A stretch of DNA of 57,610 nucleotides, taken from the NCBI GenBank assembly GCA_018969905.1, contig JAGWXK010000003.1, forward strand, positions 1 to 57,610, written 5' to 3'. The translations under genes and the position numbers were made by a program. This DNA is from Bdellovibrionales bacterium. GTDB taxonomy: Bacteria; Bdellovibrionota; UBA1018; CAIMNF01. The notes under the pieces were generated by a model. The model was not told where the DNA came from and ran no database searches. It saw nothing but the letters and a program-made list of their open reading frames with translations. This document shows, piece after piece, positions 6,998-27,742 of this stretch (position 1 is its first letter; every line of letters starts with the position of its first letter).

Positions 6998-7104
6998 GAC
7001 CGACTCATCGGCTGCCGGGCCGGAATAAATTACGGTTGTGTAAAATAACGACATCTCCGCAATCCTGCGCGTGCCTCAAATCGAGAATACGGGCCTTTGG
7101 GTGA

Positions 7105-13279: not shown

Positions 13280-13338
13280 GTCCCTACCTTCGCAAACCCT
13301 ACCGACGAAATCAATTCAAACTGTGCGGGGATTGTGGC

Positions 13339-14331
13339 ATGCTCGGGGCGATGCTCACGGACGCATATGCTCGGAAATTCAGCTACTTGAGGTTGTCGAT
13401 CACCGAGAAGTGCAACTTCAGCTGCAAGTATTGTCTGCCCGAGGGGTACAAACCGTCGGCCCATGCCCCCGAACCGGAATTGAGTCTTTCCGAGATCCGA
13501 AATCTCCTGGCGGGCATTTCCCATGCCGGTTTTCGAAAAATCCGCATCACAGGCGGAGAGCCGACCTTGCGTCCGGACCTCCTGCAAATCATCGAGGCGG
13601 CTTCCGAAACCCCCGGGATTGAGATTCGCGCCCTCTCCACCAATGGCTGGAATCTCAGGTCGATTTCGAAAAAATTGAAACTCGCAGGTCTCACGCACTT
13701 GAACGTGAGTGTGGACAGCCTTGACCGGCAGCGGTTCTTGAAGCTCTGCGGACGCGATTCCCTTCACCTGGTTCTTGCGGGCATTGAGGAGGCTCTGGCC
13801 CTGCAGTTTGCGGGAGTGAAAATCAATGCGGTATTGCATCGTGATTCCGCCCAATCGGAGCTCGAACACTTCCTCGAGTATGTGAAATCAAGACCCCTCA
13901 CCGTGCGTTTCATTGAACTCATGCGAACCGGGGAGCGTGGCGAATATCGCGATCGGCATTTTTTGTCGGCAGGAGGGCTGAAACTTCACCTTCTTGCCCG
14001 CGGGTGGAAGCCACTCGAACGGGAACTCTCCTCGGGGCCTGCGCATGAGTTCTACCATCCGGACTTTTCCGGCCGAATCGGCCTGATTGCACCGCATTCG
14101 GATGGGTTTTGTGAATCCTGCAATCGTTTGCGGGTCACATCGCAAGGGAAGTTGAAGCTTTGCCTCTTTGGTGAGAAGGACGAATCCATCCGCCCCTTCC
14201 TGCAATCAAAGGAAGTTGCGCTCGGGTTGGACTTAAGGATTCAGCAGTTGCTCGTTCAAAAGCCCGGAGCCCATTTTCTCTCCGAGGGGCGAACCGGAGG
14301 AGCACGGAACTTTTCCGTGATGGGGGGCTGA
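13339..14331 (+). CDS. moaA: GTP 3',8-cyclase MoaA
   Basis: CNFSCKYC radical-SAM motif, FCESCNRLR...CLFG, C-terminal GG. Alternative start at 13351. Confidence 0.96.
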   Translation: MLGAMLTDAYARKFSYLRLSITEKCNFSCKYCLPEGYKPSAHAPEPELSLSEIRNLLAGISHAGFRKIRITGGEPTLRPDLLQIIEAASETPGIEIRALSTNGWNLRSISKKLKLAGLTHLNVSVDSLDRQRFLKLCGRDSLHLVLAGIEEALALQFAGVKINAVLHRDSAQSELEHFLEYVKSRPLTVRFIELMRTGERGEYRDRHFLSAGGLKLHLLARGWKPLERELSSGPAHEFYHPDFSGRIGLIAPHSDGFCESCNRLRVTSQGKLKLCLFGEKDESIRPFLQSKEVALGLDLRIQQLLVQKPGAHFLSEGRTGGARNFSVMGG

Positions 14332-14338
14332 TTCAAAC

Positions 14339-15607
14339 ATGAATTCACTCATCAAATATGAAGATGCGATCCGGATTCTTAGGGAGTCTGCAAGGACCCG
14401 GACCCTCAGAACAGAAAAAGTACCGCTTCTTGAATCTCAAAACCGGGTGGTTGCCTGCGACCTGAACGCTGAGGAGTGCATTCCCGTTTACGACAACTCC
14501 GCGATGGATGGCTTTGCGCTTCGTTCGGGCGAGGTGGTTTCGGGACAGAATCTTCTCAAGGTTTCGGAGCAAAGAATTGCAGGAGATCTGCCGGGAGCAC
14601 CTCCGGTGAACAGTGTCGCGGTCCAGGTCATGACCGGTGCCCCGATGCCAAACGGCGGGTTTGACCTTGTGATCAAGATCGAGGACGTTCTGAAAATCGC
14701 GGATCCTGCCGGCGGATATTCCATTCAATTTGACTCTCTCCGTGCCAGTGGGGGGTTCGTCCGGAAAAAGGGATCGGACTACAAGCCGGGCGATCTTCTG
14801 GTTGCGCGGGGCACGCGGATTGATCCGAAAATGATTCTGGCGCTTGCCGCCCTTGGAGTCTCACGGGTTCCTGTATGCAAAAAACCAAAAGTTGCATTGA
14901 TCTCGACGGGCAACGAGCTTGTTGCTTTTGATGAACCCAGGGTTCCGGAAGGAGCGATCCGAAACTCGACTGGTCCTTTTTTGCTCGAGACCCTTAAGGC
15001 CTATGGCTGCGAGGTCCGGAATTTTGGAATCATCGGGGATGAGACTTCGGATCATCCTGTTGAGTTTGATCTTGCGCTTCGCTCCGCACTTTCCGAGGAG
15101 TTTGACCTGATTCTCACCACAGGTGCGGTATCCATGGGCGTTCATGACTTTCTGAGGACCTCGGTGGAGAAGGGCGGGGGAAGAATCCTGTTTCACGGCG
15201 TTGCGATACGGCCTGGAAAACCGGTGCTTTTTGCCGATTTTCCCGATCATCCCCGCACAAGCCTGCTTGGTCTTCCGGGAAATCCCGTATCGAGTGTCGT
15301 GGGTGCGGATTTTTTTGTGGCCCCGTTTCTGCGTACGCTCTTCGGAATGAAGGAAGGAGTGCTCTTTCAAGGCACGCTCACGGGACCTGTGCCCGAAACT
15401 CCAAAGGGACTGAGGGCCTTTCTTCGGGCACGTGTCTTTGCCTTGCCGGATGGGGCTCGTGGAGTCGAGATTCTTCCGGGGCAGGGGTCCTTCATGATTC
15501 ACTCCCTGTCCCAGGCGAATGCATGGGCCGTGGTCCCCGAGGAAGGCGGAATCGGGGAGGGAGACAGGATCCGATTTCAAATGTTTTCAGAAAGGATTGA
15601 TCCATGA
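14339..15607 (+). CDS. moeA: Molybdopterin molybdotransferase MoeA
   Basis: SAMDGFA, STGNEL, TTGAVSMG, RPGKP and LPGNPVS motifs. Confidence 0.95.
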   Translation: MNSLIKYEDAIRILRESARTRTLRTEKVPLLESQNRVVACDLNAEECIPVYDNSAMDGFALRSGEVVSGQNLLKVSEQRIAGDLPGAPPVNSVAVQVMTGAPMPNGGFDLVIKIEDVLKIADPAGGYSIQFDSLRASGGFVRKKGSDYKPGDLLVARGTRIDPKMILALAALGVSRVPVCKKPKVALISTGNELVAFDEPRVPEGAIRNSTGPFLLETLKAYGCEVRNFGIIGDETSDHPVEFDLALRSALSEEFDLILTTGAVSMGVHDFLRTSVEKGGGRILFHGVAIRPGKPVLFADFPDHPRTSLLGLPGNPVSSVVGADFFVAPFLRTLFGMKEGVLFQGTLTGPVPETPKGLRAFLRARVFALPDGARGVEILPGQGSFMIHSLSQANAWAVVPEEGGIGEGDRIRFQMFSERIDP

Positions 15608-15887: not shown

Positions 15888-16346
15888 ATGAATGCTTCGT
15901 TGAATCGGATCGAAATCGAAGTGAGTGATTCTCCCATCGGAGCGGATTCCATTTGCCTTCAGGAGTTCATCCGTCCCGACTGCGGAGCCTGTGATTTGTT
16001 TTTCGGGACAGTGCGGGGCCGGAATCACGGAAAAGACGTGGTAGCGGTGTCCTATGATGCGTTTGTTCCCCTGGCCCGCGCGGAGCTTCGGAGGATCGGC
16101 GAGGAGGCACTTGGGGCTGCAAACACGCAAGGAACAGTGGTGATCCGGCATCGGACCGGAAAACTCGCGGTGGGTGAACTCAGTGTCTTGATTGCAGTGT
16201 TCACTCCGCACCGGGCTCAGGCCTTTGAGGCCTGCCGGTTTGTGATTGAAGAGTTGAAAAAAAGGGCTCCGATCTGGAAAAAAGAGTTTTATCGGGATGG
16301 CGAGACAGAGTGGCTGAAGGGCCATTCCTTGTGTGGAGGCTTATGA
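15888..16346 (+). CDS. moaE: Molybdopterin synthase catalytic subunit MoaE
   Basis: FFGTVR, HRTGKL, PHRAQAF and PIWKKE motifs. Confidence 0.94.
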   Translation: MNASLNRIEIEVSDSPIGADSICLQEFIRPDCGACDLFFGTVRGRNHGKDVVAVSYDAFVPLARAELRRIGEEALGAANTQGTVVIRHRTGKLAVGELSVLIAVFTPHRAQAFEACRFVIEELKKRAPIWKKEFYRDGETEWLKGHSLCGGL

Positions 16347-17803
16347 GAACAACGGTTGTTTTTTTTCTGAACGGAAAACGTCATGAAGTGGGATCGGACC
16401 AGGCCTTTCAAACTGTTTCGGATTTTCTTCGCTACGAGCGGGGACTTACGGGCACAAAAGTTGTGTGCGCTGAGGGTGACTGTGGCGCCTGCACCGTGCT
16501 GGTGTCGCGTTTTCGAGCAGGGAAGCTTCAGCCCTATCAATCCATCAACTCCTGCATCGCATATGTGTATTCCTTGCATCGAACCCATCTGATCACGGTG
16601 GAAGGATTGAAGAGGGGGCAGGAACTGCATCCAGTACAGGCGGCAATGGTCGAGAGGCAGGGCTCGCAGTGTGGCTATTGCACTCCGGGATTTGTTTGTT
16701 CCATGGCGCTCCTTGCCGAGGATGCGAAACGGGAGGGATTTCGCCCTGATGAAAAGAAGGTTCGGAATTACACAACCGGGAATCTTTGCAGATGCACCGG
16801 CTACGCCCCGATTCTTGAGGCCGGAGTGGCGATGGATCTTGACCGTGTTCAGGCGCTATCGTCTTTTTACGGCGATGACCGCATCGAAGCCGAATTTTCT
16901 GCGATTCGCGTCGAGGGAATCCGGATTCGGGGCGAGGGAAAGGAGGTTTTCCTCCCGATTGACCTCACTGAGGCTGTCCAAGAACGCGCAAGTGATCCTA
17001 CCGTTCGTTTGTCTGCCGGAACCACGGATCTTGGCGTGGTGTCCAATAAGGGAAAATTGAAACTGACCCGCTTGCTTTCACTGCAGGAGGTGGAGAGCTT
17101 GCATCTCATCAAGAAAACCGGAAACCGCATCCGGGTCGGAGCAAGGGCAAGTCTGCATCAGCTGGAGCGGAGTCTTGCGGACGAGTTCCCGGAATTTTCA
17201 AGGATGCTCAGGATCTTCGCGTCACCCCAAATCAAGAACTCGGCGACCCTCGTGGGAAATCTGATGAATGCATCCCCGATCGCCGACACCATTCCGTTCT
17301 TACGGGTGGCGGAAGTCCTGGTCTTGATCGCCTCGCCTCAGGGAGAAAGAAGGGTGGGGATCAATGACTTTATTCTTCCGGGTTACAAGAAACTTGATCT
17401 TAGGTCCGATGAACTGGTGGTTGGCATTGAGATCCCGCTTTCGGATCATCGCTACAAGCTCTACAAGGTTTCCAACCGCAAGGACCTCGATATTTCCGCC
17501 GTGACTTTTGCCGCCCGATACCGATTGAAAGACGGAGCATTCGAGAGTTTCTCCCTGGCTCTCGGAGGTGTCGGGGCGAGCGTGCTTCGGATGGGCGGGA
17601 TCGAAGCACAGGTGCTCGGAAAGCCGCTTTCGCTCAATCTCTTCCGGGCCCTTGCCAATACGCTCCCCGGGGAAATCACCCCGATCACCGATGTGCGCGG
17701 ATCGGCCGGATACCGTCTGAGGGTGGCGCAAAATCTCCTACTGAAATTTCATGATGACCTTGCAGTGGAAGAGGGACTTGGCATCAACGAGGCCTCCCTA
17801 TGA
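16343..17803 (+). CDS. xdhA: Xanthine dehydrogenase small subunit (2Fe-2S/FAD)
   Basis: GTKVVCAEGDCGAC, QCGYCTPGF, NLCRCTGY and FASPQIKN; start overlaps the moaE stop. Confidence 0.95.
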   Translation: MRTTVVFFLNGKRHEVGSDQAFQTVSDFLRYERGLTGTKVVCAEGDCGACTVLVSRFRAGKLQPYQSINSCIAYVYSLHRTHLITVEGLKRGQELHPVQAAMVERQGSQCGYCTPGFVCSMALLAEDAKREGFRPDEKKVRNYTTGNLCRCTGYAPILEAGVAMDLDRVQALSSFYGDDRIEAEFSAIRVEGIRIRGEGKEVFLPIDLTEAVQERASDPTVRLSAGTTDLGVVSNKGKLKLTRLLSLQEVESLHLIKKTGNRIRVGARASLHQLERSLADEFPEFSRMLRIFASPQIKNSATLVGNLMNASPIADTIPFLRVAEVLVLIASPQGERRVGINDFILPGYKKLDLRSDELVVGIEIPLSDHRYKLYKVSNRKDLDISAVTFAARYRLKDGAFESFSLALGGVGASVLRMGGIEAQVLGKPLSLNLFRALANTLPGEITPITDVRGSAGYRLRVAQNLLLKFHDDLAVEEGLGINEASL

Positions 17804-20136
17804 GCATCGGCACAAACATACGGCATGATTCCTCGGTGACCCATGTGGCTGGCGAAAGCGTGTTCATTGATGATCGTCCCGAGGTTCGGGGTGAAGTCCA
17901 TGTGGGAGTGGTGGGGAGTCCCATTGCACGGGGAATCCTGAAATCGATCGATGCGCGTGAGGCACTCGCCCATCCGGATTGTCTTGGGGTGTTTACGGCC
18001 GCGGATTTTCATGCAAAGCATTGGGGCACGATCACCCACGATCAGCCCTTTCTGGTGGTGGACGCGATTTCCTACATGCAGGAGGCCGTGTGCATTGTGG
18101 CAAGTTCCAAACGGGGATCCGTTGAGGCGATCAAGAAACTGGTCAAAATCGAAGCTACCCCGTCCGAGGGTGTGTTCAGCATCGATGAGGCGAAAGCCAA
18201 GGGAGAGATCCTCTATCGGGCCGCAAGTCCATTCATCCAGGGGGATGTGGATGCGGCGCTGAAGTCCTCTCCTCATCGACTAAAGGGGATATTTCGTTGC
18301 GGAGGGCAGGAGCATTTTTATCTTGAGTCGCAGGCCGCGATCGCCTATCCGCTTGAGAACGGACAAATCGAGGTACACTCCTCATCCCAGCATCCAAGCG
18401 AAACGCAGCGTGTGGTCGCGGAAGCCCTTGGACTTTCCTTCCACCAGGTCGTGTGTGTGGTCAAACGCATGGGGGGAGGATTTGGCGGAAAGGAATCCCA
18501 GGGTGCTCCGATTGCAGCCTACGCGGCCCTTGTTGCCGATCGCCTGAGGCGTCCCGCACGAATCGTGCTGACCAAGGATCAGGACATGATGATCACCGGG
18601 AAGCGTCATCCATTTCAGAACGAGTATGAGGTGGGCTTTGACAATCAGGGGAGGCTGCTTGCCGTGAATGCGCTTCTGCAATCGGATGGTGGGGCGTATC
18701 TTGATCTTTCCTCATCGATTCTTGAGCGGGCGATGTTTCACCTGGATGGTGCGTACCACCTTCCGAACGTCAGGGTCGAGGGGATTTGCTATCGAACCCA
18801 TCACCATCCCCATACTGCCTTCCGTGGATTCGGCGGGCCGCAGGGAAACATGACCATCGAAAGCATTCTTGAGGATGTGGCACATTACTTAAAGAAAGAC
18901 GCAAGCGAGGTCCGACGAATCAATTTATACTCGGGAGCAAATCTCAAGACTCCCTACGGCCAGGTTCTGGAGAACAACCTTTTGCCACGGATTCATGAAC
19001 GACTGCTCCTGAGTTCCGGATACGAGAAAAGACTCGGGGAAATCAGGGAATTCAATTCACGCCGGTGCGGCAAGGTTCGAGGAATATCACTTACCGCCAC
19101 GAAGTTCGGGATCTCCTTTACCGCCCGGTTTTTGAATCAGGCAAATGCTTTGGTGAATCTTCAGCTTGATGGAACGCTTCAGGTAAGCACTGGGGCCACT
19201 GAGATGGGGCAGGGAGTGAACACGAAAATCCAGCAGATCGTGGCCCATGCCTTCGGCGTATGTCCGGATGCGGTCCGGGTAATGCCGACGTCAACCGAAA
19301 AAAATCACAATACCTCGCCCACTGCGGCCTCCAGTGGATCTGACTTGAATGGTGCAGCAGCTCTTCTTGCATGCGATCGGATCAAGGCGCGACTCATTCC
19401 TCTTGCTCGGGCCAGATTTCAGGGACAGGAGTTTGATCCGACCCGCGAGTTCGAGAGCCCGGAAAGCCTGACTCCGAGTCCGGATCCTGACATGGTTTTT
19501 TCAGAAGGAGTTGTGCGCGATCAGCGAAGCGGGAAGTCGGTTCCTTTGCGGGAGTTGATCCATTTGGCCTATCAGAATCGGATTTCCCTTGGTTCGTATG
19601 CGCACTACAAAACGCCGGATCTTGGTTTCGACAAAACTCGGGTCGTGGGGCGTGCATTCAATTATTTCACCCAAGGAATGGCCGTCTCGGAGGTCGAAGT
19701 GGACGAATATACGGGTGAAATGAAGGTGCGGCGTGCAGACATCCTCATGGATCTTGGTCGCTCACTGAATCCCGGGATTGACCGCGGCCAGACGACCGGA
19801 GCGTTCATTCAAGGAATGGGATGGGTGACCTCGGAACACCTGGTCTATGACCGCGACCGGAATCTCCTCACCCATTCTCCGACCACGTATAAGATTCCAA
19901 ATGTCCAGGACACCCCACGGGAATTCAATGTGGAGTTCATCGAAAATCCGGACAATGATCGGAACGTGCACGGGTCAAAAGCTGTGGGTGAGCCCCCGTT
20001 CTTGCTTGGCACGAGTGTATGGACCGCAATCAAGCATGCCTTGTCGTTCCGTGCAAATGGACAGGAGATCCGTCTTGTTTCGCCTGCGACGTCAGAGGTG
20101 ATCCTGATGGAGTTGACTCGCTTAAAGGGAGAGTGA
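17800..20136 (+). CDS. xdhB: Xanthine dehydrogenase molybdopterin subunit
   Basis: GGQEHFYLE, RMGGGFGGKE, AFRGFGGPQG, SPTAAS and KAVGEPP motifs. Confidence 0.97.
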   Translation: MSIGTNIRHDSSVTHVAGESVFIDDRPEVRGEVHVGVVGSPIARGILKSIDAREALAHPDCLGVFTAADFHAKHWGTITHDQPFLVVDAISYMQEAVCIVASSKRGSVEAIKKLVKIEATPSEGVFSIDEAKAKGEILYRAASPFIQGDVDAALKSSPHRLKGIFRCGGQEHFYLESQAAIAYPLENGQIEVHSSSQHPSETQRVVAEALGLSFHQVVCVVKRMGGGFGGKESQGAPIAAYAALVADRLRRPARIVLTKDQDMMITGKRHPFQNEYEVGFDNQGRLLAVNALLQSDGGAYLDLSSSILERAMFHLDGAYHLPNVRVEGICYRTHHHPHTAFRGFGGPQGNMTIESILEDVAHYLKKDASEVRRINLYSGANLKTPYGQVLENNLLPRIHERLLLSSGYEKRLGEIREFNSRRCGKVRGISLTATKFGISFTARFLNQANALVNLQLDGTLQVSTGATEMGQGVNTKIQQIVAHAFGVCPDAVRVMPTSTEKNHNTSPTAASSGSDLNGAAALLACDRIKARLIPLARARFQGQEFDPTREFESPESLTPSPDPDMVFSEGVVRDQRSGKSVPLRELIHLAYQNRISLGSYAHYKTPDLGFDKTRVVGRAFNYFTQGMAVSEVEVDEYTGEMKVRRADILMDLGRSLNPGIDRGQTTGAFIQGMGWVTSEHLVYDRDRNLLTHSPTTYKIPNVQDTPREFNVEFIENPDNDRNVHGSKAVGEPPFLLGTSVWTAIKHALSFRANGQEIRLVSPATSEVILMELTRLKGE

Positions 20137-20138
20137 CC

Positions 20139-20981
20139 ATGCCAAGTTTTGAGACTTTCTGTGAGAGGTTTCTTGAGCTGAAAAGAGCCGGGACACCGAT
20201 GGTGGTGGTGACGCTTACGGGAGAGAGGGGACACGTTCCGCAGGATCTTGGAGCCCGCATGGTGGTGGGTGATGATGGCATCCTGTTTGGAACCATTGGC
20301 GGAGGAAAGATCGAAAAACGATGCATTGAGCAGGCGCAGGAGTATCTTTCCGCAAAAGACGGTCCCACGAAATACAGCTTTACCTGGAACCTTCAGCGTG
20401 ACATCGGAATGAGCTGTGGAGGGGAGCTCAGTGTGCTTTTTGAGGTGTTCTCTGGAAATCGTGAGTGGCGGATCGCACTCTTTGGTGCAGGCCACATTGT
20501 GCAGGAACTTGCGCCCTTGCTCTTGAAGCTGGAGTGTCGTCTCCAGGTCTTTGATCCGAGGATCGAGTGGTTGTCCAGGATTTCCGATCACCCACGTCTT
20601 GAAAAACGATTGACTCCGGACATGGTACCGATGATCGATGAACTCTCGCCCGATTGTTTTGTCGGGATCATCACCATGGGGCATGCGACCGACTATCCAC
20701 TCGTGAAGCGCGCCCTTGAGACAAGGACCTTTCCCTATCTGGGTGTCATCGGCAGCAAGGTGAAACGGATCAAAATCAACTCCGATCTCCTTGCTGCCGG
20801 AATCCCGGGTGCCAGGGTCGATAGTTTTCACTGTCCGATGGGAGAGGATTACGGAAAGAACGATCCGGCTGAAATCGCAATCTCGATTGCATCTCAAATG
20901 CTTTCCATCAGGCGTGATCTTGGTCTTCAGGAATCCCGTACAGGTGGAGGCGGTTCATCCCTCCGTCAGGATGAACGGTGA
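20139..20981 (+). CDS. xdhC: Xanthine dehydrogenase accessory protein XdhC
   Basis: GTIGGG, IGMSCGG, LFGAGH, YLGVIGS and PAEIAISI; overlaps the 3' end of the convergent fusion gene. Confidence 0.93.
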   Translation: MPSFETFCERFLELKRAGTPMVVVTLTGERGHVPQDLGARMVVGDDGILFGTIGGGKIEKRCIEQAQEYLSAKDGPTKYSFTWNLQRDIGMSCGGELSVLFEVFSGNREWRIALFGAGHIVQELAPLLLKLECRLQVFDPRIEWLSRISDHPRLEKRLTPDMVPMIDELSPDCFVGIITMGHATDYPLVKRALETRTFPYLGVIGSKVKRIKINSDLLAAGIPGARVDSFHCPMGEDYGKNDPAEIAISIASQMLSIRRDLGLQESRTGGGGSSLRQDER

Positions 20982-23900
20982 GTTTGACTTCGGTGAGGAC
21001 GTCCTTGAGGTCCATCTCCCGAACAAACCGGTTTCCCGCATAAGGCTTTACGAGTGTTTTTGGCATGATTTGCTTCCAAACCCCTTGCGAGAGCCCATGC
21101 AATTCCACTTCGCGCGGGTTGTTGTTACGGAAAAAAGTGAAGTCCATTTCAACGCGGGTGATTCTTCCGGGTTTGGCCAGACGCAGGTGAACCGATTCAG
21201 TGTGCCCCGGAGTCCTGCTTCTGGCCGACTCAAGCCCGTCAAACATGTGGATGGGAGCAAAAGGTGAAATCATGCGCGCGGCCGGCCCATAGTGCTCGTT
21301 TGATGCAGAAATGATTTTTGCGCCGAAGGCCTCGCAAGCAAGGTCGATCGGCAGACATTCGGATATCCGACCCCAGTTGCGGGCGAGTTTTGCCTGGTCC
21401 AGATGGTAGTCCGGAGCAAGGGGTTTTTGAGGTTGCGGAATCGGCATCGGATCGCGCACACACTCGGCAGTGTTGACCTCGCGATAGAACCTTTTTTCTT
21501 CGGCCGGGAGAAGATCATCAAACAGGGCAAGGCGGGTCAAGCCCCCGTCAGGCGACATCTTGACCTTGATGGCCGAAATCAGCAGCGACGAGTTTGCGGA
21601 GATGATTCGTTTTTCAGAGTGCCCTTCCATCGAGGTTTTCGGAAGAAGCGTGATCCATGCGTCTCCACCTGCTTTTTTCCCTAGAATTTCAACAAGTGGC
21701 GCCTGGTTGCCAAGATGGTATCGGGTGGAGATCCGAAGATAGTGAACATAAGAGGGTTTTTTCAACTCAAGGATCAGTCGGTCCGAGTCTTTCGGGTTGT
21801 GACGGGCGCTCTCCCAACTGTCCATCACCTTTCCCTGCCTTCCATAGAGACCGGGATCAAACACCGGCTCATGCAGGGAGATCAGGTTTTCAGCGCGCGC
21901 AAATCGCTGGTTTGAAACGCTGATGATTCTCGCGTCGGCCAGAAGATTGTATTTTGAAAGCGGATCGAGCGGTCCTTTGGGATGGATTTCCTCGGGGAGG
22001 TCCGGAAGAAAAGCCTTGAAGACAAGGTTTTTATAGCCAAGATTGACGATCTCCTCGATGGGCATTCCGGCGGAATCGAGGTTTGCCTGGAATTCGCTTT
22101 CATCAACACCCTTGATTTTCAGTTCCTTGAGAATCTCTTGTGCGGCTTCCGCGCAAAACAAAACGCCATTGTCATCCGCGTTGCAAAGGATCACCATCCC
22201 CTTGCCCCGGTCCGGCCCACGAAAACAATGAAGCGAAAGGCACCGAAAACCGTCATTTGCGCCCTGGTGAATCGCAAACCGGTTTTCAAGAGCTTCACCG
22301 ATGAACACTCCGATTCCGGCATTCACTCCCATGAATTCCTGGCTCGAACTGTCGGTATCCTCGAGCATTCGGACAGCTGTTTCATGGGAAACCGCCACAT
22401 CTCCTTGATACCGATGAAATCCTGATTCCAAAATATCCAAAAACCGGTGATAGCTTCGCGCGGTGCCCAGGCCCCCGGCTGCGCAGGCAGGGAAGTTCAG
22501 CCGCCCTCCCGGGATCTCATCCCCGTTTTTCCGGTACCCCTTTGCATACACGAAACCTTCCTGATCGAGGGATTGAAAGCTCAGTTCCGGAAGTCCGAGG
22601 CTTTGGAAAAAAGGGGCTGCGATCGCCGCGATCGGCTTTCCTTCGAGGGATTCAAGAAGGTGTTCAAGGACAAGAAAACCGCCTCCGGAATACTTGAAGC
22701 CTGATCCTGGTTGAAAGAGAGCCCCGGTTTCCTCGTACCCGTACCTTGAGGGATCCCGTAAGATGGAAAGCACACCCGGCATGGGTTTTTCTGCAGGAAA
22801 TCCCCTCACATAGTGCTGGTTTAAGGCATTGTGTTTCATCAGGTTCAGAATTCTGACCTGATCGCCCCAGGCAGGATGCGAGATGTCCAATGATCTGATC
22901 TGATAGGGGGAGCGAAATTTTTTCAAAAGTGGATTCACAGGGGTTTCGAGAGAAATCGCCTTTGAACGGAAGATTTCGAGCGATAGGGCGGAGGCAAGGG
23001 TTTTGCTGAGTGATGCAAGCTCAAAGCGGGTTTCGGGCTCCACACGCGGGCCTCCCTTGAACGCGTGACCAAGGCAAATATCCTGAAAAACCCGTTCACC
23101 CGCACTGATCGAGATCTGGACTCCGGTGACTTCATGCTTGATCCGGAGGGCCTCGATCCGTTCAAGCAGGCTTGCCGAACCAAGAGGCACAAGGCGTTTG
23201 GCACTGATCCGCCATAGTTCAAGCCGCGCATTCTGGAGCTCTACCTCTTCTGTGTTGTGCAGGCGTTCATTTAGTTTGGTGAGAATCTCTGATCCCGACT
23301 TTCCCTGGGCTGATACAAGAAACTTCATTCCAAAACGCTTGAGATACTCTTGTCCCCCTGCAAGGAGCTCTCGCCTAAGCTCTTCCTGCCCCAGAAGCAC
23401 CCCTGCTTGCTCGGATGCAGCAAGTTCATCAAGGGTCCTCTTGTTTTCTCCGATGTCACCGTGAAACGACGCCGCATCCAGAATGTCATTCTTGGTGAAT
23501 TCCATGACAATCCTCTCGGCTAGCTCCAGGTCAGGTGAGAGGAGATTTGAGAGAGGGAGTGCGAACTTCATGCTGCCACAGACCGAAAAGTAATGGTTCA
23601 GTCGCTCGATCCTCGGGGAGAGATTGTATTTTCCGGGTTCAAGACCCATTAGTGTTTCAAGGGGTTCGGGCGAGTTTCGAACAGATTCAATCGTGAAAGG
23701 AAGAAGCAGCTCTGATGCGAACTCTACCGGTTCAGGATCGGTCATCAACTTCAGCATCAATTTGAGTGCGATCGGATACCACTTTGCTGTTCTTTCATCC
23801 CATTTCACCTGGACGATCTTTTTTCCGTCGGACAGATCCTTCCTGATGAAACGCATCTCTTCGTGTGCAATTCGTACAAAGTCTTCGATCTTGACGCGCC

Positions 23901-25650
23901 CATGGTGGATTTCATGCCACACCTCCCATCGGGAACGCTCTGCAGTGGCAAGATCATCCATTACGCGGACAGGAACCCCTTTGAGCTGTGCGGGCAATGC
24001 CACACACCCATTTCCCGAAAGCCAGTCGGTAAGGTACTGAAGCGACTGGAACACGTTGTAGCGGACTTCCTCTTGGTCGTGGTTTGCGATGAAGGTCGAT
24101 TCCTTGAGATCAGCCACAATCAGGGAGCGGGGGTAAAGAGGGTCATCGATCCTGAGTCCCTCGATGTCAGACCCCTGGATGAATGAAAGAATTTCCTCGT
24201 GATGTTCCGGAAGCAATAGCGAGCACACAAGTTCGTCCAACAACTGGGGCGAGGAATCTCTCAGTTTCCATGCCTGAACGAGCGCCATTCCCAGCCGCAC
24301 AAAGTCCGGATGCGCCACCCAGAAGCCGCTCAAGTTGCGCTTGAGCTGGGTCACCACATCCTTGATGTAGCCCTTGATGGTGAGTTGAAAGGAGGGACTT
24401 GTGAGTTCGTTTTCGATTGGCAAAACCCCGTACATTCCGCCGATCTTGATTCCACCCCGTGATCCGACCACCTCGGAGAGCAGATCATGGGATGCTTTGA
24501 TGTATTTGATGACAATGTCCGGATCGGCTTTTACCGGAATCCTGTAATTCGCGTCATTCTTGAATAAACGGGCAGTGGATGCCAGGTAGTCGTGCCAGCC
24601 GAGCGAGGCCCCTGCAAAATACGGGTGGAGGGCATCCATGATCTCATTGACCCTGAAAATGGCTCGTGGGTTTTCAAGAACGACAAACAATCGAATCGAA
24701 CCCGGTTCATAGGTGGGGTGTTCTTTTCGGAGAAGATCCTCCGCGGTTTCGATCATCAGTCTGATGTACGCCGCCTCTTCCTCGTTTTCGAGTTTCGGCA
24801 CGTAGTAGCAGAGTGCAGGTTCACGGTTCCAATGCGTGTAGAGGTGCAAAGCGAAGTCGTACAGGTGCAGAGGAAGGGGATTTCCCTCAAACAAAAGGAA
24901 GGGAGCGGGAAGGGCAAGGCCTGGAAACCGTTTGATCGGAAGCGAGAGACGGGTGGATTCAAGTTGGTATGATTTTCCTGTTTTCTCGTCCTGAAAACGG
25001 AGGGTCCCCTCAAAGCAGCCTTTCAGGTTTTGTCCGGCAGAAATCAGATCCTGTCTGAGCGGGGTTTTCGAGTCCTCATCATCCGCGCCCCAGAAAGGGG
25101 CATCCTCGCAGGTTTCAAGGATGCCAGAAACAATTGTAGGCTCGTCCCTGATCCTTCGGTGAAATGCGTTCATTGCATTAATAGAGAGTTTCGGATCATC
25201 AGGTGGTCCGAAGAGAGTGACATGAGTGCCCTTTAGGAAGGTGGGGAGATTGGCAATCGGATCACCGTAGCCCTTTTTGCAGTAGAAAGGATTTTTCGGT
25301 CCGATGACGATTCGACCCTCGCCGTCCTCATGGCCGAGTACACTTTCATAGTCTTGATCCCGAAGATCGATCTTCAAGGATTGATTGAGTTCGTAACAGG
25401 ATTTCGTGCGCTCATCCAGGAACTTGCGGTCGATTTTCCTTTGCTCCAGCACCCGGTTCAGGGGCTCTTTTAGGATCTGATAGAGTTCACACAGAAAACG
25501 GAACGACTCTCTGTTTTCGAGGCCACCCGAGGGACCCAATTGTCTGAGCCCGGGAACGCCCTCAACCGGTAGACTTTCCTTTTTTAGGTGCTCAAGGAGG
25601 GCCGGTGAGAGGTAGTCGTGGTAGTAAGGAATGTCCGTTTTTTCCATCAT
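20908..25650 (-). CDS. Multidomain fusion: malate synthase + OHCU decarboxylase + beta-lactamase-like serine hydrolase + allantoicase
   Basis: Malate synthase motifs (ADDEDS, YYVPKLE, GFWVAHPDFV, WLSGNGCV, MDDLATAERSR) at ~23620-25650. OHCU decarboxylase (FHGDIG, SEQAG, YLKRFGMKFLV) at ~23190-23600. SxxK/YSG/HQG serine hydrolase at ~22100-23170. Two allantoicase repeats (DSWESAR, DGLESAR, PDGG) at ~20930-21950. Start probably ATG 25650, right after the uraH stop. Confidence 0.88.
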   Translation of the reverse strand: MMEKTDIPYYHDYLSPALLEHLKKESLPVEGVPGLRQLGPSGGLENRESFRFLCELYQILKEPLNRVLEQRKIDRKFLDERTKSCYELNQSLKIDLRDQDYESVLGHEDGEGRIVIGPKNPFYCKKGYGDPIANLPTFLKGTHVTLFGPPDDPKLSINAMNAFHRRIRDEPTIVSGILETCEDAPFWGADDEDSKTPLRQDLISAGQNLKGCFEGTLRFQDEKTGKSYQLESTRLSLPIKRFPGLALPAPFLLFEGNPLPLHLYDFALHLYTHWNREPALCYYVPKLENEEEAAYIRLMIETAEDLLRKEHPTYEPGSIRLFVVLENPRAIFRVNEIMDALHPYFAGASLGWHDYLASTARLFKNDANYRIPVKADPDIVIKYIKASHDLLSEVVGSRGGIKIGGMYGVLPIENELTSPSFQLTIKGYIKDVVTQLKRNLSGFWVAHPDFVRLGMALVQAWKLRDSSPQLLDELVCSLLLPEHHEEILSFIQGSDIEGLRIDDPLYPRSLIVADLKESTFIANHDQEEVRYNVFQSLQYLTDWLSGNGCVALPAQLKGVPVRVMDDLATAERSRWEVWHEIHHGRVKIEDFVRIAHEEMRFIRKDLSDGKKIVQVKWDERTAKWYPIALKLMLKLMTDPEPVEFASELLLPFTIESVRNSPEPLETLMGLEPGKYNLSPRIERLNHYFSVCGSMKFALPLSNLLSPDLELAERIVMEFTKNDILDAASFHGDIGENKRTLDELAASEQAGVLLGQEELRRELLAGGQEYLKRFGMKFLVSAQGKSGSEILTKLNERLHNTEEVELQNARLELWRISAKRLVPLGSASLLERIEALRIKHEVTGVQISISAGERVFQDICLGHAFKGGPRVEPETRFELASLSKTLASALSLEIFRSKAISLETPVNPLLKKFRSPYQIRSLDISHPAWGDQVRILNLMKHNALNQHYVRGFPAEKPMPGVLSILRDPSRYGYEETGALFQPGSGFKYSGGGFLVLEHLLESLEGKPIAAIAAPFFQSLGLPELSFQSLDQEGFVYAKGYRKNGDEIPGGRLNFPACAAGGLGTARSYHRFLDILESGFHRYQGDVAVSHETAVRMLEDTDSSSQEFMGVNAGIGVFIGEALENRFAIHQGANDGFRCLSLHCFRGPDRGKGMVILCNADDNGVLFCAEAAQEILKELKIKGVDESEFQANLDSAGMPIEEIVNLGYKNLVFKAFLPDLPEEIHPKGPLDPLSKYNLLADARIISVSNQRFARAENLISLHEPVFDPGLYGRQGKVMDSWESARHNPKDSDRLILELKKPSYVHYLRISTRYHLGNQAPLVEILGKKAGGDAWITLLPKTSMEGHSEKRIISANSSLLISAIKVKMSPDGGLTRLALFDDLLPAEEKRFYREVNTAECVRDPMPIPQPQKPLAPDYHLDQAKLARNWGRISECLPIDLACEAFGAKIISASNEHYGPAARMISPFAPIHMFDGLESARSRTPGHTESVHLRLAKPGRITRVEMDFTFFRNNNPREVELHGLSQGVWKQIMPKTLVKPYAGNRFVREMDLKDVLTEVKLTVHPDGGMNRLHLYGIPEDQDHA

Positions 25651-25651
25651 T

Positions 25652-25984
25652 TCATGATCCGCGATAGGTGGAATACCCAAATGGGTTTAAGAGGAGGGGA
25701 ACGTGGTACTTTCGGCCCGTGTTTGAAATTTTGAAGATCACGGGCGCAGTGAGAAAGAAGAAATCGCTTTGAGTCTCTTCAAGATACTCCGAAATTTGAA
25801 AGGTCAATCGATAGGTACCCGCAAGCTTTTCGCAATCAAAGGAGTGTCGTCCATCCGCGTTGGTGCGGCCGCGCGCGATTTCGGAAAATTCCGACGATGA
25901 TCCATTCTTTGCGATCTCGAGCACAACCTCGATGCCCTCTGCGGGCATTCCTTTGCTGGTGTCCAGTACGTGCGTGCTGATCAT
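25652..25984 (-). CDS. uraH: 5-hydroxyisourate hydrolase (transthyretin-like)
   Basis: ISTHVLD, TNADGR, YHVPLLL and C-terminal YRGS. Confidence 0.96.
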   Translation of the reverse strand: MISTHVLDTSKGMPAEGIEVVLEIAKNGSSSEFSEIARGRTNADGRHSFDCEKLAGTYRLTFQISEYLEETQSDFFFLTAPVIFKISNTGRKYHVPLLLNPFGYSTYRGS

Positions 25985-25990: not shown

Positions 25991-27607
25991 CTACTTTCCA
26001 TAACTGAAATCGAGTTCAAGGGTTTGATCTGCTTTTACTGTCACTTCCTGTTTCAGGGATCCGAAAACCTCATGCCAGGCCTCCAGTGTGTAAGTCCCGA
26101 CCGGCACGTTCGAAATGGTGAACTCACCTGAGGTTCCGGTTACCTGAAAATACGGATGATCGAGGACCGCAATCGAGGCACTCATCCACGGGTGGACGCT
26201 GCACTTGGATTCGATGAAAATCTCAGGTTTTTGAAACACCTTCGTCATCTTGTCGTTTTTCAAAGGCATCGCCACGTTGAAGTTTTCGTTTTCCTTACTC
26301 AGTGATTTCACGTTGTGGAAGATCGGATCGCTGTTTAGAAAATCCACAGGCTGCCCGACGCGAACGGCAAGAAGTCTTGGCTCGTACTGACATTCCTTTT
26401 GATCGAGCACCGCGTGCGTTTTCGGGGGAGCGCCGAAGTCCCTTGGTTTAAGGCCACGAGTGATGGACACAAGCACGTTCGCGACCTTGCCTTCGGATAC
26501 CAGGATGTCGTTTGACAAAACTTCGGGCTTTCCGCTCGGATTGCAGCCTCCGGGCACCGACAGGGTCTCACGAGCGGGAGGGGTGCCGCGGTAAAGCGCT
26601 CGCCCGCGAAGGGTGCCATGAGGACCCACATCCACTGGCGCGGATTCTTCCGCCTTCGAATTCACTGCGGGTTCTGGAGTCGCGGGGATTTCCTGGGAAA
26701 GGTTCTCGCGGGTAAGGATCATCACGGCAAGAATGATCGTCGCACCCAAGACTCCGAACCGACGCGAGCGCATGGGGTTCGAGAGCCGGACCACGAAGAA
26801 TTCTCGGATCGCCGCTCCCGCTGCGCTGATCGCAATTAGGATCTGCCAGTTGTAGGCATTGCCATAGGTGTTCGGGAAGTGGTTGGAGAGCATGATGAAA
26901 ATGACCGGAAGAGTAAAGTAGGTGTTGTGGGTGGAGCGATTCTTTGCGTTCTTTGCCCATTCCTGATTCACAGGTTCGCCGCGTTTTGAGGCTTCCACCA
27001 TTTTCACCTGGCGGGGGATGATCCGAAGGAAGACGTTTGCGGTCATCCATGTGCCGAGCATTCCTCCGATGTGGATATAGGCCGCCCGCCCGCTCAGGGT
27101 GTGACACAAAAGATAAACCATTCCTCCAAACCAAAGAAGAGTGATCGTGTGTCCGGCAAGCGGGTTCTTTTTTGTAAAATTTGATTCCCAAAGAGTGTCA
27201 TAAAAAACCCAGGATCCGATCAGGGAGCCTAGGCTCAGCAGGATCGCCTCTACAAAGCTGATCTTCGATACGCTTGAATCCAAAAGGAAGGTACCGGAGC
27301 CCGAGTAGAAAATGAGTGCGAGCAAAAAGATTCCGCTCATCCAAGTCCAATAGGATTCCCATTTGAACCAATGAAGTTCCTTTGGGACGGGAGTCGGACC
27401 CATGAGAAGTTTCTCGACATGATAAAATCCGCCTCCGTGGACCATCCAGAGGTCCCCGATGTGGCCCGGGTTTTTGGATTCCGGGTTTTTGACAAAACTC
27501 CGGTCAAGCCACATGAAAAAAATGGAGGTCCCAATCCAGGTGATTCCCACCATGATGTGCAGCCAGCGTCCTAGGAGTTGCAGCCATTCGAAGATTTCTT
27601 GATTCAC
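25991..27607 (-). CDS. puuD: PuuD-type membrane urate oxidase/hydroxylase with a C-terminal cupredoxin-like domain
   Basis: RWLHIMVGITWIGTS, WMVHGGGFY, LHWFKWESY, RSTHNTYFTLPV and MLSNH. The C-terminus has HNV...CSVHPWM and no CxxCH. Start probably GTG 27607, after an AAGGGG SD. Confidence 0.88.
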   Translation of the reverse strand: MNQEIFEWLQLLGRWLHIMVGITWIGTSIFFMWLDRSFVKNPESKNPGHIGDLWMVHGGGFYHVEKLLMGPTPVPKELHWFKWESYWTWMSGIFLLALIFYSGSGTFLLDSSVSKISFVEAILLSLGSLIGSWVFYDTLWESNFTKKNPLAGHTITLLWFGGMVYLLCHTLSGRAAYIHIGGMLGTWMTANVFLRIIPRQVKMVEASKRGEPVNQEWAKNAKNRSTHNTYFTLPVIFIMLSNHFPNTYGNAYNWQILIAISAAGAAIREFFVVRLSNPMRSRRFGVLGATIILAVMILTRENLSQEIPATPEPAVNSKAEESAPVDVGPHGTLRGRALYRGTPPARETLSVPGGCNPSGKPEVLSNDILVSEGKVANVLVSITRGLKPRDFGAPPKTHAVLDQKECQYEPRLLAVRVGQPVDFLNSDPIFHNVKSLSKENENFNVAMPLKNDKMTKVFQKPEIFIESKCSVHPWMSASIAVLDHPYFQVTGTSGEFTISNVPVGTYTLEAWHEVFGSLKQEVTVKADQTLELDFSYGK

Positions 27608-27742
27608 CGGTTTCGGACCCCTTTTTCCGAGGTCCGAGCTTAACGCATTTTCTGGGTAAATCGATCTTTTTTGTGGAGCCTTTCCTCTTCTGAAATGATT
27701 TTCATTCACCGGTCGGAAAAGATCCCTCCGTAAAGGCACCGG

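What the first reader, a model, noticed from the sequence alone, without database searches (positions are those of the whole stretch)
20908..25650. Four-enzyme purine-catabolism fusion with a beta-lactamase-fold domain in the place of the missing allantoinase
Seen: one ORF holds malate synthase (~aa 11-690 of the 1590-aa ORF), OHCU decarboxylase (~694-830, His740), an AmpC/PBP-like serine hydrolase with intact S-x-x-K (Ser890), Y-S-G (Tyr997) and H-Q-G (His1138) motifs, and a two-repeat allantoicase (~1244-1585). Known: the pathway runs xanthine, urate, HIU, OHCU, allantoin, allantoate, ureidoglycolate, glyoxylate, malate. The cluster supplies XdhABC, PuuD, UraH, OHCU decarboxylase, allantoicase and malate synthase, but has no allantoinase (AllB/PuuE) and no ureidoglycolate lyase (AllA). 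Inference: the serine hydrolase lies between the enzyme that makes allantoin and the one that consumes allantoate, so it is a candidate non-homologous, metal-independent allantoinase opening a cyclic amide much as a beta-lactamase does. Alternatively it acts on ureidoglycolate. The fusion could channel unstable or toxic intermediates (OHCU, ureidoglycolate, glyoxylate) into malate. I know of no characterised protein with this architecture.
Basis: partly seen in the sequence, partly recalled or inferred. Interest (0 to 1): 0.92.

Follow-up and report, generated by a model that had tools for sequence, protein, structure and literature searches.

The report
Candidate serine allantoinase in purine-breakdown fusion
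A predatory-type bacterium makes one giant protein that joins four steps of uric-acid breakdown, and the beta-lactamase-like piece in it most likely does the step (opening the allantoin ring) for which these bacteria, and apparently many protists, have no known enzyme.

Summary
Window 20908-25650 (-) is one 1580-aa gene with a malate-synthase-like (MSL) domain, OHCU decarboxylase, a PF00144 serine hydrolase and a two-repeat allantoicase. It is packed behind puuD and the HIU hydrolase gene and lies beside xdhABC. It is not a chimera: at least 120 full-length homologues and 80 of 80 genome loci keep the domain order.

The own genome (97% complete) has no AllB, PuuE or AllA. In 301 sampled genomes of the phylum, all 27 with a stand-alone allantoicase have AllB right beside it. 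Of the 34 with the serine-hydrolase domain, 33 have no AllB. Stand-alone relatives are eukaryotic, and 25 of 55 end in a peroxisomal signal. One protein is serine hydrolase + AllA-type ureidoglycolate lyase + allantoicase, ending -SKL. I read the domain as a third, non-homologous, serine-nucleophile allantoinase (about 0.75); this is untested biochemically.

The "malate synthase" label is doubtful. The MS-invariant Arg276 is always Trp. MSL, DUF6986 and AllA exclude one another. A stand-alone MSL sits in the only empty (ureidoglycolate) slot of a PuuE/racemase/UGHY/AAH operon. It is probably a ureidoglycolate lyase (about 0.6), as shown for zebrafish MS-like protein.

I found no paper on any of this.

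The parts
20908..25650 (-). Whole fusion gene (1580 aa from Met11; stop codon 20908-20910). The ATG lies 1 nt after the stop codon of the HIU hydrolase gene.
   Evidence: The database copy P0002 is 1580 aa and 100% identical.
23581..25650 (-). Malate-synthase-like (MSL) domain, aa 11-700. Predicted ureidoglycolate lyase; a malate synthase activity is not excluded.
   Evidence: Pfam MS_TIM-barrel and MS_C. TIGR01344 scores 134 bits against a cut-off of 594.5. Alignment to 3cuz_A. The Arg276 equivalent is Trp in 225 of 225 family members. Operon context in L174.
23179..23580 (-). OHCU decarboxylase domain, aa 701-834 (His740 invariant).
   Evidence: PF09349 scores 72.6 bits. Invariant residues are listed.
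21946..23178 (-). PF00144 (beta-lactamase/PBP fold) serine hydrolase domain, aa 835-1245. Predicted allantoinase.
23011..23013 (-). Codon of Ser890, the predicted nucleophile of the S-x-x-K motif.
   Evidence: Invariant in 119 of 119 sequences. Nearly invariant in alignment A1, which includes the eukaryotic stand-alone forms.
20911..21945 (-). Allantoicase domain with two repeats, aa 1246-1590.
   Evidence: PF03561 scores 168.7 bits in two stretches. One search places the repeats at 20932-21324 and 21520-21933.
25652..25984 (-). HIU hydrolase (transthyretin family).
   Evidence: PF00576 scores 108.9 bits. It lies next to the fusion in 62 of 80 loci.
25991..27739 (-). PuuD-type membrane urate oxidase with a C-terminal CarboxypepD_reg-like domain.
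   Evidence: PF06181 scores 353.5 bits. It lies next to the fusion in 54 of 80 loci and in 30 of 34 long loci.
16310..20981 (+). xdhA, xdhB and xdhC (xanthine dehydrogenase and its maturation factor). The 3' end of xdhC overlaps the 3' end of the fusion gene, convergently.
8826..15607 (.). Support genes: xanthine/uracil permease (8826-10139 -), ThiF/MoeB (10136-11191 -), MOT1-type molybdate transporter (11184-12308 -), MoaC-MogA fusion (12305-13279 -), MoaA (13339-14331 +), MoeA (14339-15607 +).

Best explanation
The gene encodes a conserved four-domain enzyme of Bdellovibrionota, about 1570 aa, that carries out consecutive steps of urate breakdown downstream of PuuD and HIU hydrolase.

1. The decarboxylase domain turns OHCU into (S)-allantoin (family assignment).
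2. The PF00144 serine hydrolase opens the hydantoin ring of allantoin to give allantoate. This is inferred. The proposed route is attack by Ser890 on the ring carbonyl, an acyl-enzyme ester with the ureido nitrogen as the tethered leaving group, then hydrolysis with Lys893 and Tyr997 assisting. That is the same two-step chemistry as a class C beta-lactamase on a lactam, and it needs no metal.
3. The allantoicase domain gives (S)-ureidoglycolate plus urea (family assignment).
4. The malate-synthase-like domain splits ureidoglycolate into glyoxylate plus urea (inferred by analogy with the zebrafish MS-like lyase).

My estimates are about 0.75 that the serine hydrolase is the allantoinase and about 0.6 that MSL is the lyase. 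The confidence given below is for both together.
For: The fusion is real and conserved. There are 120 listed full-length homologues with the same five Pfam families. In 80 of 80 genome-contig loci the domain order is the same wherever the contig allows; this includes Peredibacter sp. HCB2-198 (complete genome) and Bdellovibrio sp. HCB2-146.

The own genome lacks a canonical enzyme. There is no PF04115, no TIGR03212, and the best TIGR03178 hit is PyrC.

The phylum sample of 301 genomes shows displacement.
- The domain occurs in 34 genomes.
- AllB is over cut-off in 27.
- PuuE is over cut-off in 0.
- Allantoicase occurs in 61, that is 34 carriers plus 27 others.
- Of the 27 others, 26 have AllB over cut-off. 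The 27th (G163) has a truncated 312-bit AllB.
- In all 27 the AllB match lies within 300 bp of the allantoicase match.
- Only 1 of 34 carriers (G270) has AllB, and it also has a second, unfused allantoicase.

No other conserved neighbour could supply the step. In 34 loci of 17 kb or more, only the fusion (34), PuuD (30), XdhB (14), XdhC (14) and XdhA (12) recur, and the next family is in 7.

The catalytic motifs are invariant in 119 of 119 sequences. The AlphaFold model has pLDDT 93.2 and a PBP/beta-lactamase fold.

The family is small and tied to the pathway. Only 90 representatives reach E<=1e-30 in 1.84 billion proteins. Among 117 listed representatives with at least 110 bits, 51 are fused to allantoicase, OHCU decarboxylase, MSL or AllA. 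One of them is P0380: serine hydrolase + PF04115 lyase (114 bits) + allantoicase, ending -SKL.

Stand-alone relatives come from Prymnesium, Effrenium, Sphaeroforma and MMETSP/EukProt sets. Of 55, 25 end in a PTS1-like tripeptide, against 1 of 120 bacterial fusions.

Evidence that MSL is the lyase:
- Zebrafish MS-like protein is a proven ureidoglycolate lyase with Arg276 replaced (PMC10120013, sections 10-11 read).
- Here the Arg276 equivalent is Trp in 120 of 120 fused and 105 of 105 stand-alone forms.
- Among allantoicase genomes, AllA (3), DUF6986 (24) and MSL (34) never coincide.
- A stand-alone MSL sits between allantoin racemase and UGHY in an operon with PuuE, UGHY and allantoate amidohydrolase. 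All three score over their cut-offs, and nothing else in the operon covers ureidoglycolate.
Against: No activity has been measured for any member of this family.

The comparative argument rests on related genomes. The 34 carriers fall in 20 genera and the 27 AllB genomes in few families, so independent events are far fewer than the counts suggest.

G270 has both AllB and the serine hydrolase.

No solved structure is close (best Foldseek TM about 0.7 at 15-20% identity). I could not inspect the active-site pocket, because no coordinates were available to scripts.

Against MSL as a lyase:
- Arg166, Glu250, Asp278, Trp365 and the catalytic base Asp447 of malate synthase A are all kept. The zebrafish lyase has Trp365Met; this family keeps Trp.
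- The genome has no isocitrate lyase, no glyoxylate carboligase, no urease and no other malate synthase. A true malate synthase would therefore be the simplest way to make use of the glyoxylate.
- The AllA versus DUF6986 complementarity rests on only 3 AllA genomes from 2 genera.
- L174 and L128 are the same sequence, so the operon evidence is one case, plus the related fragment L198.
Confidence: 0.55

Rival explanations
1. The serine hydrolase is the allantoinase, and the N-terminal domain is a genuine malate synthase that condenses glyoxylate with acetyl-CoA. Ureidoglycolate decays spontaneously or is split by the allantoicase domain.
For: The malate synthase A residues Arg166, Glu250, Asp278, Trp365 and Asp447 are invariant in 225 of 225 family members. 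The conserved G-N-G-C-V stretch aligns with 3cuz_A. The genome has no other malate synthase, no isocitrate lyase, no glyoxylate carboligase and no urease, so malate would be the only evident gain from the pathway. From recall, not from a call: older enzymology reports that some allantoicases also act on ureidoglycolate.
Against: TIGR01344 scores 134 bits against a cut-off of 594.5. PF01274 scores 71 bits, against 330-372 bits for true MSA in the same phylum. The MS-conserved Arg276 is always Trp. MSL excludes AllA and DUF6986. A stand-alone MSL fills the ureidoglycolate slot of an otherwise complete operon.
Confidence: 0.22
2. The serine hydrolase acts on ureidoglycolate, as an amidohydrolase or lyase, or on another ureide. 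Allantoin is opened by an enzyme not yet recognised elsewhere in the genome.
For: AllA is absent from the genome, so that step also lacks a canonical enzyme. The fold gives no substrate information.
Against: P0380 joins the same hydrolase family to a canonical AllA-type lyase and allantoicase, so a second ureidoglycolate enzyme would be redundant there. AllB, not AllA, is the gene that is present in all 27 genomes with unfused allantoicase and missing in 33 of 34 carriers. No other conserved gene accompanies the fusion. The own genome has no cyclic amidohydrolase besides PyrC.
Confidence: 0.08
3. The serine hydrolase domain has no role in ureide chemistry. It would be a peptidase or esterase, or a scaffold for assembly, carried along in the fusion.
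For: The nearest structures are esterases, DD-peptidases, LACTB and D-amino-acid amidase. The domain has the lowest share of invariant residues of the four (9%).
Against: The catalytic motifs are invariant across 119 sequences and kept in eukaryotic relatives. The family is fused to ureide enzymes in several different arrangements. The pathway would be left without an allantoinase.
Confidence: 0.06
4. The long ORF is an assembly or frame artefact that joins separate genes.
For: None was found. The window comes from a draft genome of 180 contigs.
Against: The same single frame occurs in 32 of 34 carriers of the phylum sample. It also occurs in 80 of 80 loci from independent assemblies, including complete genomes. 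The two short cases are a frameshift (G107) and a true two-domain form (G270).
Confidence: 0.01

Closest known systems
AllB (metal-dependent cyclic amidohydrolase allantoinase) and PuuE (polysaccharide-deacetylase-fold, metal-independent allantoinase)
   Same: They have the same predicted reaction and the same place in the pathway. In this phylum AllB lies directly beside allantoicase, exactly where the serine hydrolase domain is fused.
   Different: There is no sequence or fold relation. The window's domain is PF00144 with a Ser-x-x-Lys nucleophile. TIGR03178 and TIGR03212 find nothing in it.
Class C beta-lactamases, R61 DD-peptidase, family VIII esterases (EstB, IS11), LACTB, D-amino-acid amidase
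   Same: The fold and the S-x-x-K, Tyr and third-motif layout are shared. The proposed acyl-enzyme opening of a cyclic amide mirrors beta-lactam hydrolysis.
   Different: Identity is only 15-20%, and the best sequence hit is 25 bits to EstB. The motifs are Y-S-G and H-Q-G rather than Y-x-N and K-T-G. NF033085 scores 17 bits against a cut-off of 415. The family has its own invariant His950, His956, Asn1142 and Arg1146. Nothing suggests antibiotic resistance.
Zebrafish malate synthase-like ureidoglycolate lyase (DrMSL; Dembech et al. 2023, PMC10120013)
   Same: Both are malate-synthase-fold proteins tied to allantoicase, with the conserved Arg276 replaced while the rest of the glyoxylate site is kept.
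   Different: Here the replacement is Trp, not Ile. Trp365 is kept, where the fish protein has Met. The domain is about 690 aa, against about 62 kDa for the fish protein. That paper states that its lyase group holds only eukaryotic sequences. Relatedness of the two groups was not tested, because I had no DrMSL sequence.
Urah-Urad 'allantoin synthase' fusions and PuuE-OHCU decarboxylase fusions
   Same: They also fuse consecutive enzymes of urate breakdown (PMC13751858, passages only; the TIGR03212 model name).
   Different: Those join two known enzymes. This protein joins four domains, two of which have no established activity, and it spans the pathway from OHCU to glyoxylate.

Membership tests
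PF00144 beta-lactamase/PBP-fold serine hydrolases | Pfam model score over the gathering cut-off | tested here: met
   82.3 bits against 27, residues 842-1177.
PF00144 beta-lactamase/PBP-fold serine hydrolases | S-x-x-K nucleophile motif, a Tyr motif and a third (K/H)-x-G motif | tested here: met
   S890-L-S-K893, Y997-S-G and H1138-Q-G are invariant in 119 of 119 sequences.
PF00144 beta-lactamase/PBP-fold serine hydrolases | The fold | tested here: met
   The AlphaFold2 model has pLDDT 93.2. Foldseek gives probability 1.00 to IS11, SurE, LACTB, R61 and class C enzymes, with TM 0.6-0.7. This is a predicted structure only.
Class C beta-lactamase (AmpC) | NCBIfam equivalog score; Y-x-N and K-T-G motifs | tested here: not met
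   NF033085 scores 17.1 bits against a cut-off of 415. The motifs are Y-S-G and H-Q-G.
AllB allantoinase (TIGR03178) | Amidohydrolase-fold equivalog score | tested here: not met
   No hit in the fusion. The best hit in the genome is PyrC at 234.8 bits against a cut-off of 357.85.
PuuE allantoinase (TIGR03212) | Equivalog score | tested here: not met
   No match in the genome. None of 301 genomes in the phylum sample is over the cut-off.
Allantoinase as an activity (any fold) | Hydrolysis of (S)-allantoin to allantoate | not testable with these tools
   Only comparative evidence is available.
Malate synthase A (TIGR01344) | Equivalog score | tested here: not met
   134 bits against a cut-off of 594.5.
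Malate synthase A (TIGR01344) | Catalytic and glyoxylate/Mg2+ residues Arg166, Glu250, Arg276, Asp278, Trp365, Asp447 (E. coli numbering; Arg276 and Trp365 as named in PMC10120013, the roles of the others from recall) | tested here: inconclusive
   Five of the six are kept. Arg276 is Trp in 225 of 225 family members.
Malate synthase A (TIGR01344) | Acetyl-CoA binding site | not tested
   The paper that lists these residues (PMC2578798) is not held.
MS-like ureidoglycolate lyase group (PMC10120013) | Arg276 and Trp365 replaced, acetyl-CoA site not conserved, 2-aa insertion | tested here: inconclusive
   Arg276 is replaced but Trp365 is not. An 8-residue insertion precedes Asp447 in the alignment to 3cuz_A; its equivalence to the paper's insertion is unknown.
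OHCU decarboxylase (PF09349) | Pfam score; conserved His | tested here: met
   72.6 bits against 24. His740 is invariant. The NCBIfam equivalog TIGR03180 is below its cut-off (73.1 against 139.4).
Allantoicase (PF03561, two repeats) | Two allantoicase repeats over the cut-off | tested here: met
   168.7 bits in two stretches. The equivalog TIGR02961 is below its cut-off (180.9 against 277.9).

The most novel reading that the evidence does not exclude
The polypeptide would be a closed five-activity line from OHCU to malate.

- The serine hydrolase is a third, independently invented allantoinase. The same family is the peroxisomal allantoinase of many protists.
- The MS-like domain is bifunctional. 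It splits ureidoglycolate in its glyoxylate site and, having kept Asp447 and Arg166, condenses the nascent glyoxylate with acetyl-CoA, so that free glyoxylate is never released.
- DUF6986 would be a further bacterial ureidoglycolate lyase of the same superfold.

The core part alone, a serine allantoinase shared by Bdellovibrionota and eukaryotic peroxisomes, I put at about 0.7.
Probability: 0.12. Interest if true: 0.92.

Novelty: new variant of a known kind. Interest (0 to 1): 0.8.

Why it matters
Allantoin ring opening is known from two unrelated enzyme families, AllB and PuuE. A serine-nucleophile enzyme of the beta-lactamase fold would be a third invention of that reaction and a new chemistry for this fold: a hydantoin instead of a lactam, peptide or ester.

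It would close a pathway hole in a whole bacterial phylum. The PTS1-bearing relatives suggest it would do the same in peroxisomes of haptophytes, dinoflagellates, ichthyosporeans and other protists. A 2023 phylogenetic-profile study of eukaryotes listed allantoinase as the one gene its first analysis failed to link to the pathway (PMC10120013, section 9).

The same data point to two bacterial candidates for ureidoglycolate lyase: the about 690-aa MS-like family and DUF6986. This would extend a function so far shown only for a eukaryotic MS-like protein.

All of it can be tested directly with cultured strains (Bdellovibrio sp. HCB337 and HCB2-146, Peredibacter sp. HCB2-198) and with published assays. 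It would also improve annotation, because these proteins are currently named 'serine hydrolase', 'malate synthase' or 'aldolase/citrate lyase family protein'.

Tried and rejected
Chimera or artefact was rejected.

The two unassigned ORFs beside puuD (P0122, P0123) were considered as hidden allantoinases and rejected. They have no family and look low-complexity and secreted. Homologues appear in only 2 of 80 loci.

A hidden conserved neighbour was rejected by clustering the ORFs of 34 loci.

G107 as a 'split' form was rejected. It is the same fusion with a frame change inside the decarboxylase part.

About 1000-aa 'OHCUD-hydrolase-allantoicase' proteins were considered as a separate architecture. 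They are probably 5'-truncated copies of the four-domain form, since blastp finds MSL remnants in most of them and P0356 has an MS_C remnant. I do not count them as independent.

The TARA protein P0194 (OHCUD + hydrolase) is likewise not counted as independent.

Sequence search of PDB, the protein atlas and Foldseek gave only generic PF00144 relatives and no clue to the substrate.

BLASTP of DUF6986 against MSL gave E 0.31 and DUF6986 has no PDB relative. Their kinship therefore rests on weak Pfam hits only.

P0213 was meant as an outgroup for the tree, but it nested inside. The tree is a quick, midpoint-rooted one, because the careful search did not finish in the time allowed. I draw no direction of transfer from it.

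Rows dropped:
- In some searches, only stand-alone proteins of 380-475 aa were counted. P0129, P0194, P0205 and P0210 were left out as fragments or fusions.
- In one search, only homologues over 1500 aa were used (118 of 120).
- In one search, only stand-alone MSL of 640-740 aa were used (105 of 115).
- In one search, my frame test mis-called L171 and L200 as stand-alone; they are fused.

Literature: five full-text searches found no paper that links this fold, DUF6986 or this fusion to ureide metabolism. Subscription journals are not covered, and supplements were closed. The SI figures S13-S17 of PMC10120013, which I could not see, may hold residue lists and bacterial MS-like sequences that bear on the MSL question.

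- Testing whether the eukaryotic carriers lack canonical allantoinase, because no eukaryotic genomes are held.
- Naming the organisms behind P0380, P0410 and similar proteins.
- Reading the acetyl-CoA site residues (PMC2578798 is not held).

Full report
THE OBSERVATION

The window holds one open frame, 20908..25680 on the minus strand. The public copy of the protein starts at Met11 and has 1580 residues.

- malate synthase TIM barrel, 251-467
- malate synthase C-terminal domain, 536-655
- OHCU decarboxylase, 720-830
- Beta-lactamase PF00144, 842-1177, at 82.3 bits
- two allantoicase repeats, ending at 1583

NCBIfam agrees on the kinds, but every equivalog model stays under its cut-off. Malate synthase A scores 134 bits against 594.5, and class C beta-lactamase scores 17 against 415.

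The gene's ATG follows the stop codon of an HIU hydrolase gene by one base. That gene follows puuD by six bases. xdhABC, Moco-synthesis genes, a molybdate transporter and a xanthine/uracil permease lie on the other side.

IS IT REAL?

A search over the whole length returned 120 listed homologues of 1500-1705 residues with the same five Pfam families at 52-79% identity. The names attached are Bdellovibrio, Bacteriovorax, Oligoflexia and the like, and the annotations read 'serine hydrolase' or 'malate synthase'.

A scan of one genome per species found 157 relatives. All 80 kept loci show the order MSL-OHCUD-hydrolase-allantoicase wherever the contig allows. HIU hydrolase is adjacent in 62 and PuuD in 54. 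They include the complete genome of Peredibacter sp. HCB2-198. An assembly chimera is excluded.

Across the window protein plus 118 full-length homologues, these residues never vary: S890, K893, Y997-S-G, H1138-Q-G, His950, His956, Asn1142, Arg1146 and the decarboxylase His740.

IS THE ALLANTOINASE REALLY MISSING?

In the own genome (2.73 Mb, 97% complete) there is no AllA and no PuuE. The only AllB-like hit is a dihydroorotase between pyrB and carA.

I then put the same questions to an even sample of 301 genomes of the phylum.
- The hydrolase domain occurs in 34 genomes. In 32 of them it lies in open frames of 1413-1645 residues.
- AllB passes its cut-off in 27 genomes.
- PuuE passes its cut-off in none.
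- Allantoicase occurs in 61: the 34 carriers and 27 others.
- Of those 27 others, 26 have AllB over cut-off. The last, G163 (83% complete), has a truncated AllB of 312 bits.
- In all 27 the AllB match lies within 300 bases of the allantoicase match. That is the position the hydrolase domain holds in the fusion.
- Only one carrier, G270, has AllB. It also has a second, unfused allantoicase, and its hydrolase-allantoicase gene is a two-domain form with MSL as a separate gene.

No other gene is conserved around the fusion. In 34 loci of at least 17 kb only the fusion, PuuD and XdhABC recur.

This is the pattern of a non-orthologous displacement of AllB. The genomes are kin, so the number of independent events is much smaller than the counts.

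THE HYDROLASE FAMILY OUTSIDE THESE BACTERIA

An exhaustive HMMER search of 1.84 billion representatives gave only 90 proteins at E<=1e-30, followed by a drop to ordinary PF00144 proteins. The family is therefore small and distinct.

Stand-alone members of about 400-450 residues (35-45% identical) carry eukaryotic labels: Prymnesium parvum, Effrenium voratum, Sphaeroforma arctica and MMETSP and EukProt transcriptomes. Of 55 such proteins, 25 end in a PTS1-like tripeptide, mostly -SKL. Only 1 of 120 bacterial fusions does. Urate oxidase, HIU hydrolase, OHCU decarboxylase and allantoicase are described as peroxisomal in fish (PMC8919083, passages).

Of 117 listed representatives scoring at least 110 bits, 51 are fused to ureide enzymes.

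The most telling is P0380. It consists of the hydrolase, a canonical AllA-type ureidoglycolate lyase (PF04115, 114 bits) and allantoicase, and it ends in -SKL. With allantoicase and the lyase already present, the step left for the third domain is allantoin to allantoate.

A quick tree places the bacterial fused domains in one clade apart from the stand-alone forms. I infer no direction of transfer from it.

STRUCTURE AND MECHANISM

The domain folds with high confidence (pLDDT 93.2). It matches esterases, SurE, LACTB, R61 DD-peptidase, class C beta-lactamases, ClbP and D-amino-acid amidase at TM 0.6-0.7 and 15-20% identity. By sequence, the nearest solved protein is EstB at 25 bits. The fold is certain and the substrate is not.

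The mechanism I propose is inferred from the chemistry of the fold. Ser890 acylates at the ring carbonyl of allantoin. The ring opens, with the ureido nitrogen remaining tethered. Water then releases allantoate.

THE 'MALATE SYNTHASE' DOMAIN

Dembech et al. (PMC10120013; sections 9-11 read, passages of the discussion) showed that the zebrafish malate-synthase-like protein is a ureidoglycolate lyase. It keeps the glyoxylate site except for Arg276Ile and Trp365Met. They state that their lyase group is purely eukaryotic.

Aligned to E. coli malate synthase A, the window's domain keeps Arg166, Glu250, Asp278, Trp365 and Asp447, but has Trp for Arg276. This holds in 120 of 120 fused and 105 of 105 stand-alone family members.

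It is the only malate synthase relative in the genome and scores 71 bits on PF01274. True enzymes in the same phylum score 330-372 bits.

AllA occurs in 4 of 301 genomes and DUF6986 in 35. Among the 27 genomes with unfused allantoicase, 24 have DUF6986 and the other 3 are exactly the AllA holders. None of the 34 carriers has either. DUF6986 is a remote malate synthase/HpcH-type barrel.

Stand-alone MSL proteins of about 690 residues occur in Desulfobulbales, Bradymonadales, Myxococcota and others. On one metagenome contig, such a gene lies in this row:
- PuuE (525 bits, cut-off 424.6)
- an ABC transporter
- a hydantoin-type racemase
- MSL
- (S)-ureidoglycine aminohydrolase (328.6 bits, cut-off 200)
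- allantoate amidohydrolase (469.5 bits, cut-off 452)
- a GntR regulator

The only step without a canonical enzyme in that row is ureidoglycolate to glyoxylate.

Against the lyase reading, the catalytic base of malate synthase is retained. The genome also has no isocitrate lyase, glyoxylate carboligase or urease, so a real malate synthase would give the pathway a clear pay-off. I put lyase at about 0.6, plain synthase at about 0.25 and both activities at about 0.12.

COMPARISON WITH WHAT IS KNOWN, AND NOVELTY

The protein is in public databases under uninformative names. Five full-text searches found no paper on it, on DUF6986, or on a beta-lactamase-fold enzyme in ureide metabolism. A 2026 review of urate-pathway fusions, of which I saw passages only, discusses Urah-Urad fusions and does not contain the word lactamase.

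The reaction and the pathway are known, and the fold is known. The assignment of this fold to this reaction, the four-domain architecture and the bacterial MS-like lyase candidates are new. I rate it a new variant of a known kind, with high interest, because the key claims can be tested at once with existing assays and cultured strains.

LIMITS

- Nothing here is biochemical evidence.
- Supplements were closed.
- Eukaryotic genomes could not be searched.
- Model coordinates could not be inspected.

Noticed in passing
L039:12588-13937 (G004), and 35 of 301 genomes of the phylum: DUF6986 (PF22484, 589 bits) follows the AllB-allantoicase-OHCUD-HIUase row. It is present in 24 of the 27 genomes with unfused allantoicase, and the 3 without it are exactly the AllA holders. 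It gives weak hits to the malate synthase and HpcH barrels. It is a candidate ureidoglycolate lyase. No paper holds the name.
   Followed up: partly
L174:2843-14165 (identical to L128); also L198: A metagenome operon reads PuuE, ABC transporter, hydantoin-type racemase, stand-alone MS-like protein, (S)-ureidoglycine aminohydrolase, allantoate amidohydrolase, GntR regulator. The MS-like gene fills the only empty step.
   Followed up: partly
P0355 (1657 aa) and P0408 (1775 aa): These are divergent four-domain fusions (MSL-OHCUD-hydrolase-allantoicase) that end in -ARL and -SKL. The full fusion may therefore also exist as a peroxisomal protein in eukaryotes. Their source organisms could not be looked up.
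   Followed up: partly
L042 (G270:C12:1-14000): A variant cluster reads puuD, a two-domain hydrolase-allantoicase gene (772 aa), a class V aminotransferase, a lone single allantoicase repeat (166 aa), MSL as a separate gene on the other strand, and a second class V aminotransferase. The same genome also has AllB with OHCUD and HIUase on another contig.
   Followed up: partly
window 27743-30159 (-): Two ORFs with no family lie between puuD and a PHO4 phosphate transporter. One (341 aa) is Ser/Gly-rich with a hydrophobic N-terminus and the other (465 aa) is Cys-rich. Homologues were found in only 2 of 80 related loci.
   Followed up: partly
window 25991-27739 (-): This PuuD is 582 aa and carries a C-terminal CarboxypepD_reg-like domain (residues 521-578). 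The PuuD of G041 is 416 aa without it.
   Followed up: no
window 9-4364 (+): A 1451-aa ORF at the window's start has no Pfam family at E<=1e-4.
   Followed up: no
window 6077-7054 (-): A 325-aa ORF gives a weak PI3/PI4-kinase match (32.6 bits, cut-off 27.1), which is unusual for a bacterium.
   Followed up: no
G107:C32 (L043), G236:C3, G280:C46: Some copies of the fusion look damaged. G107 has a frame change inside the decarboxylase part. G236 has one in-frame stop (TAA) and G280 has one (TAG) in the second allantoicase repeat. These may be sequencing errors or decaying genes.
   Followed up: no
window 20908-20981: The 3' ends of xdhC (+) and the fusion gene (-) overlap convergently by about 74 bases.
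   Followed up: no
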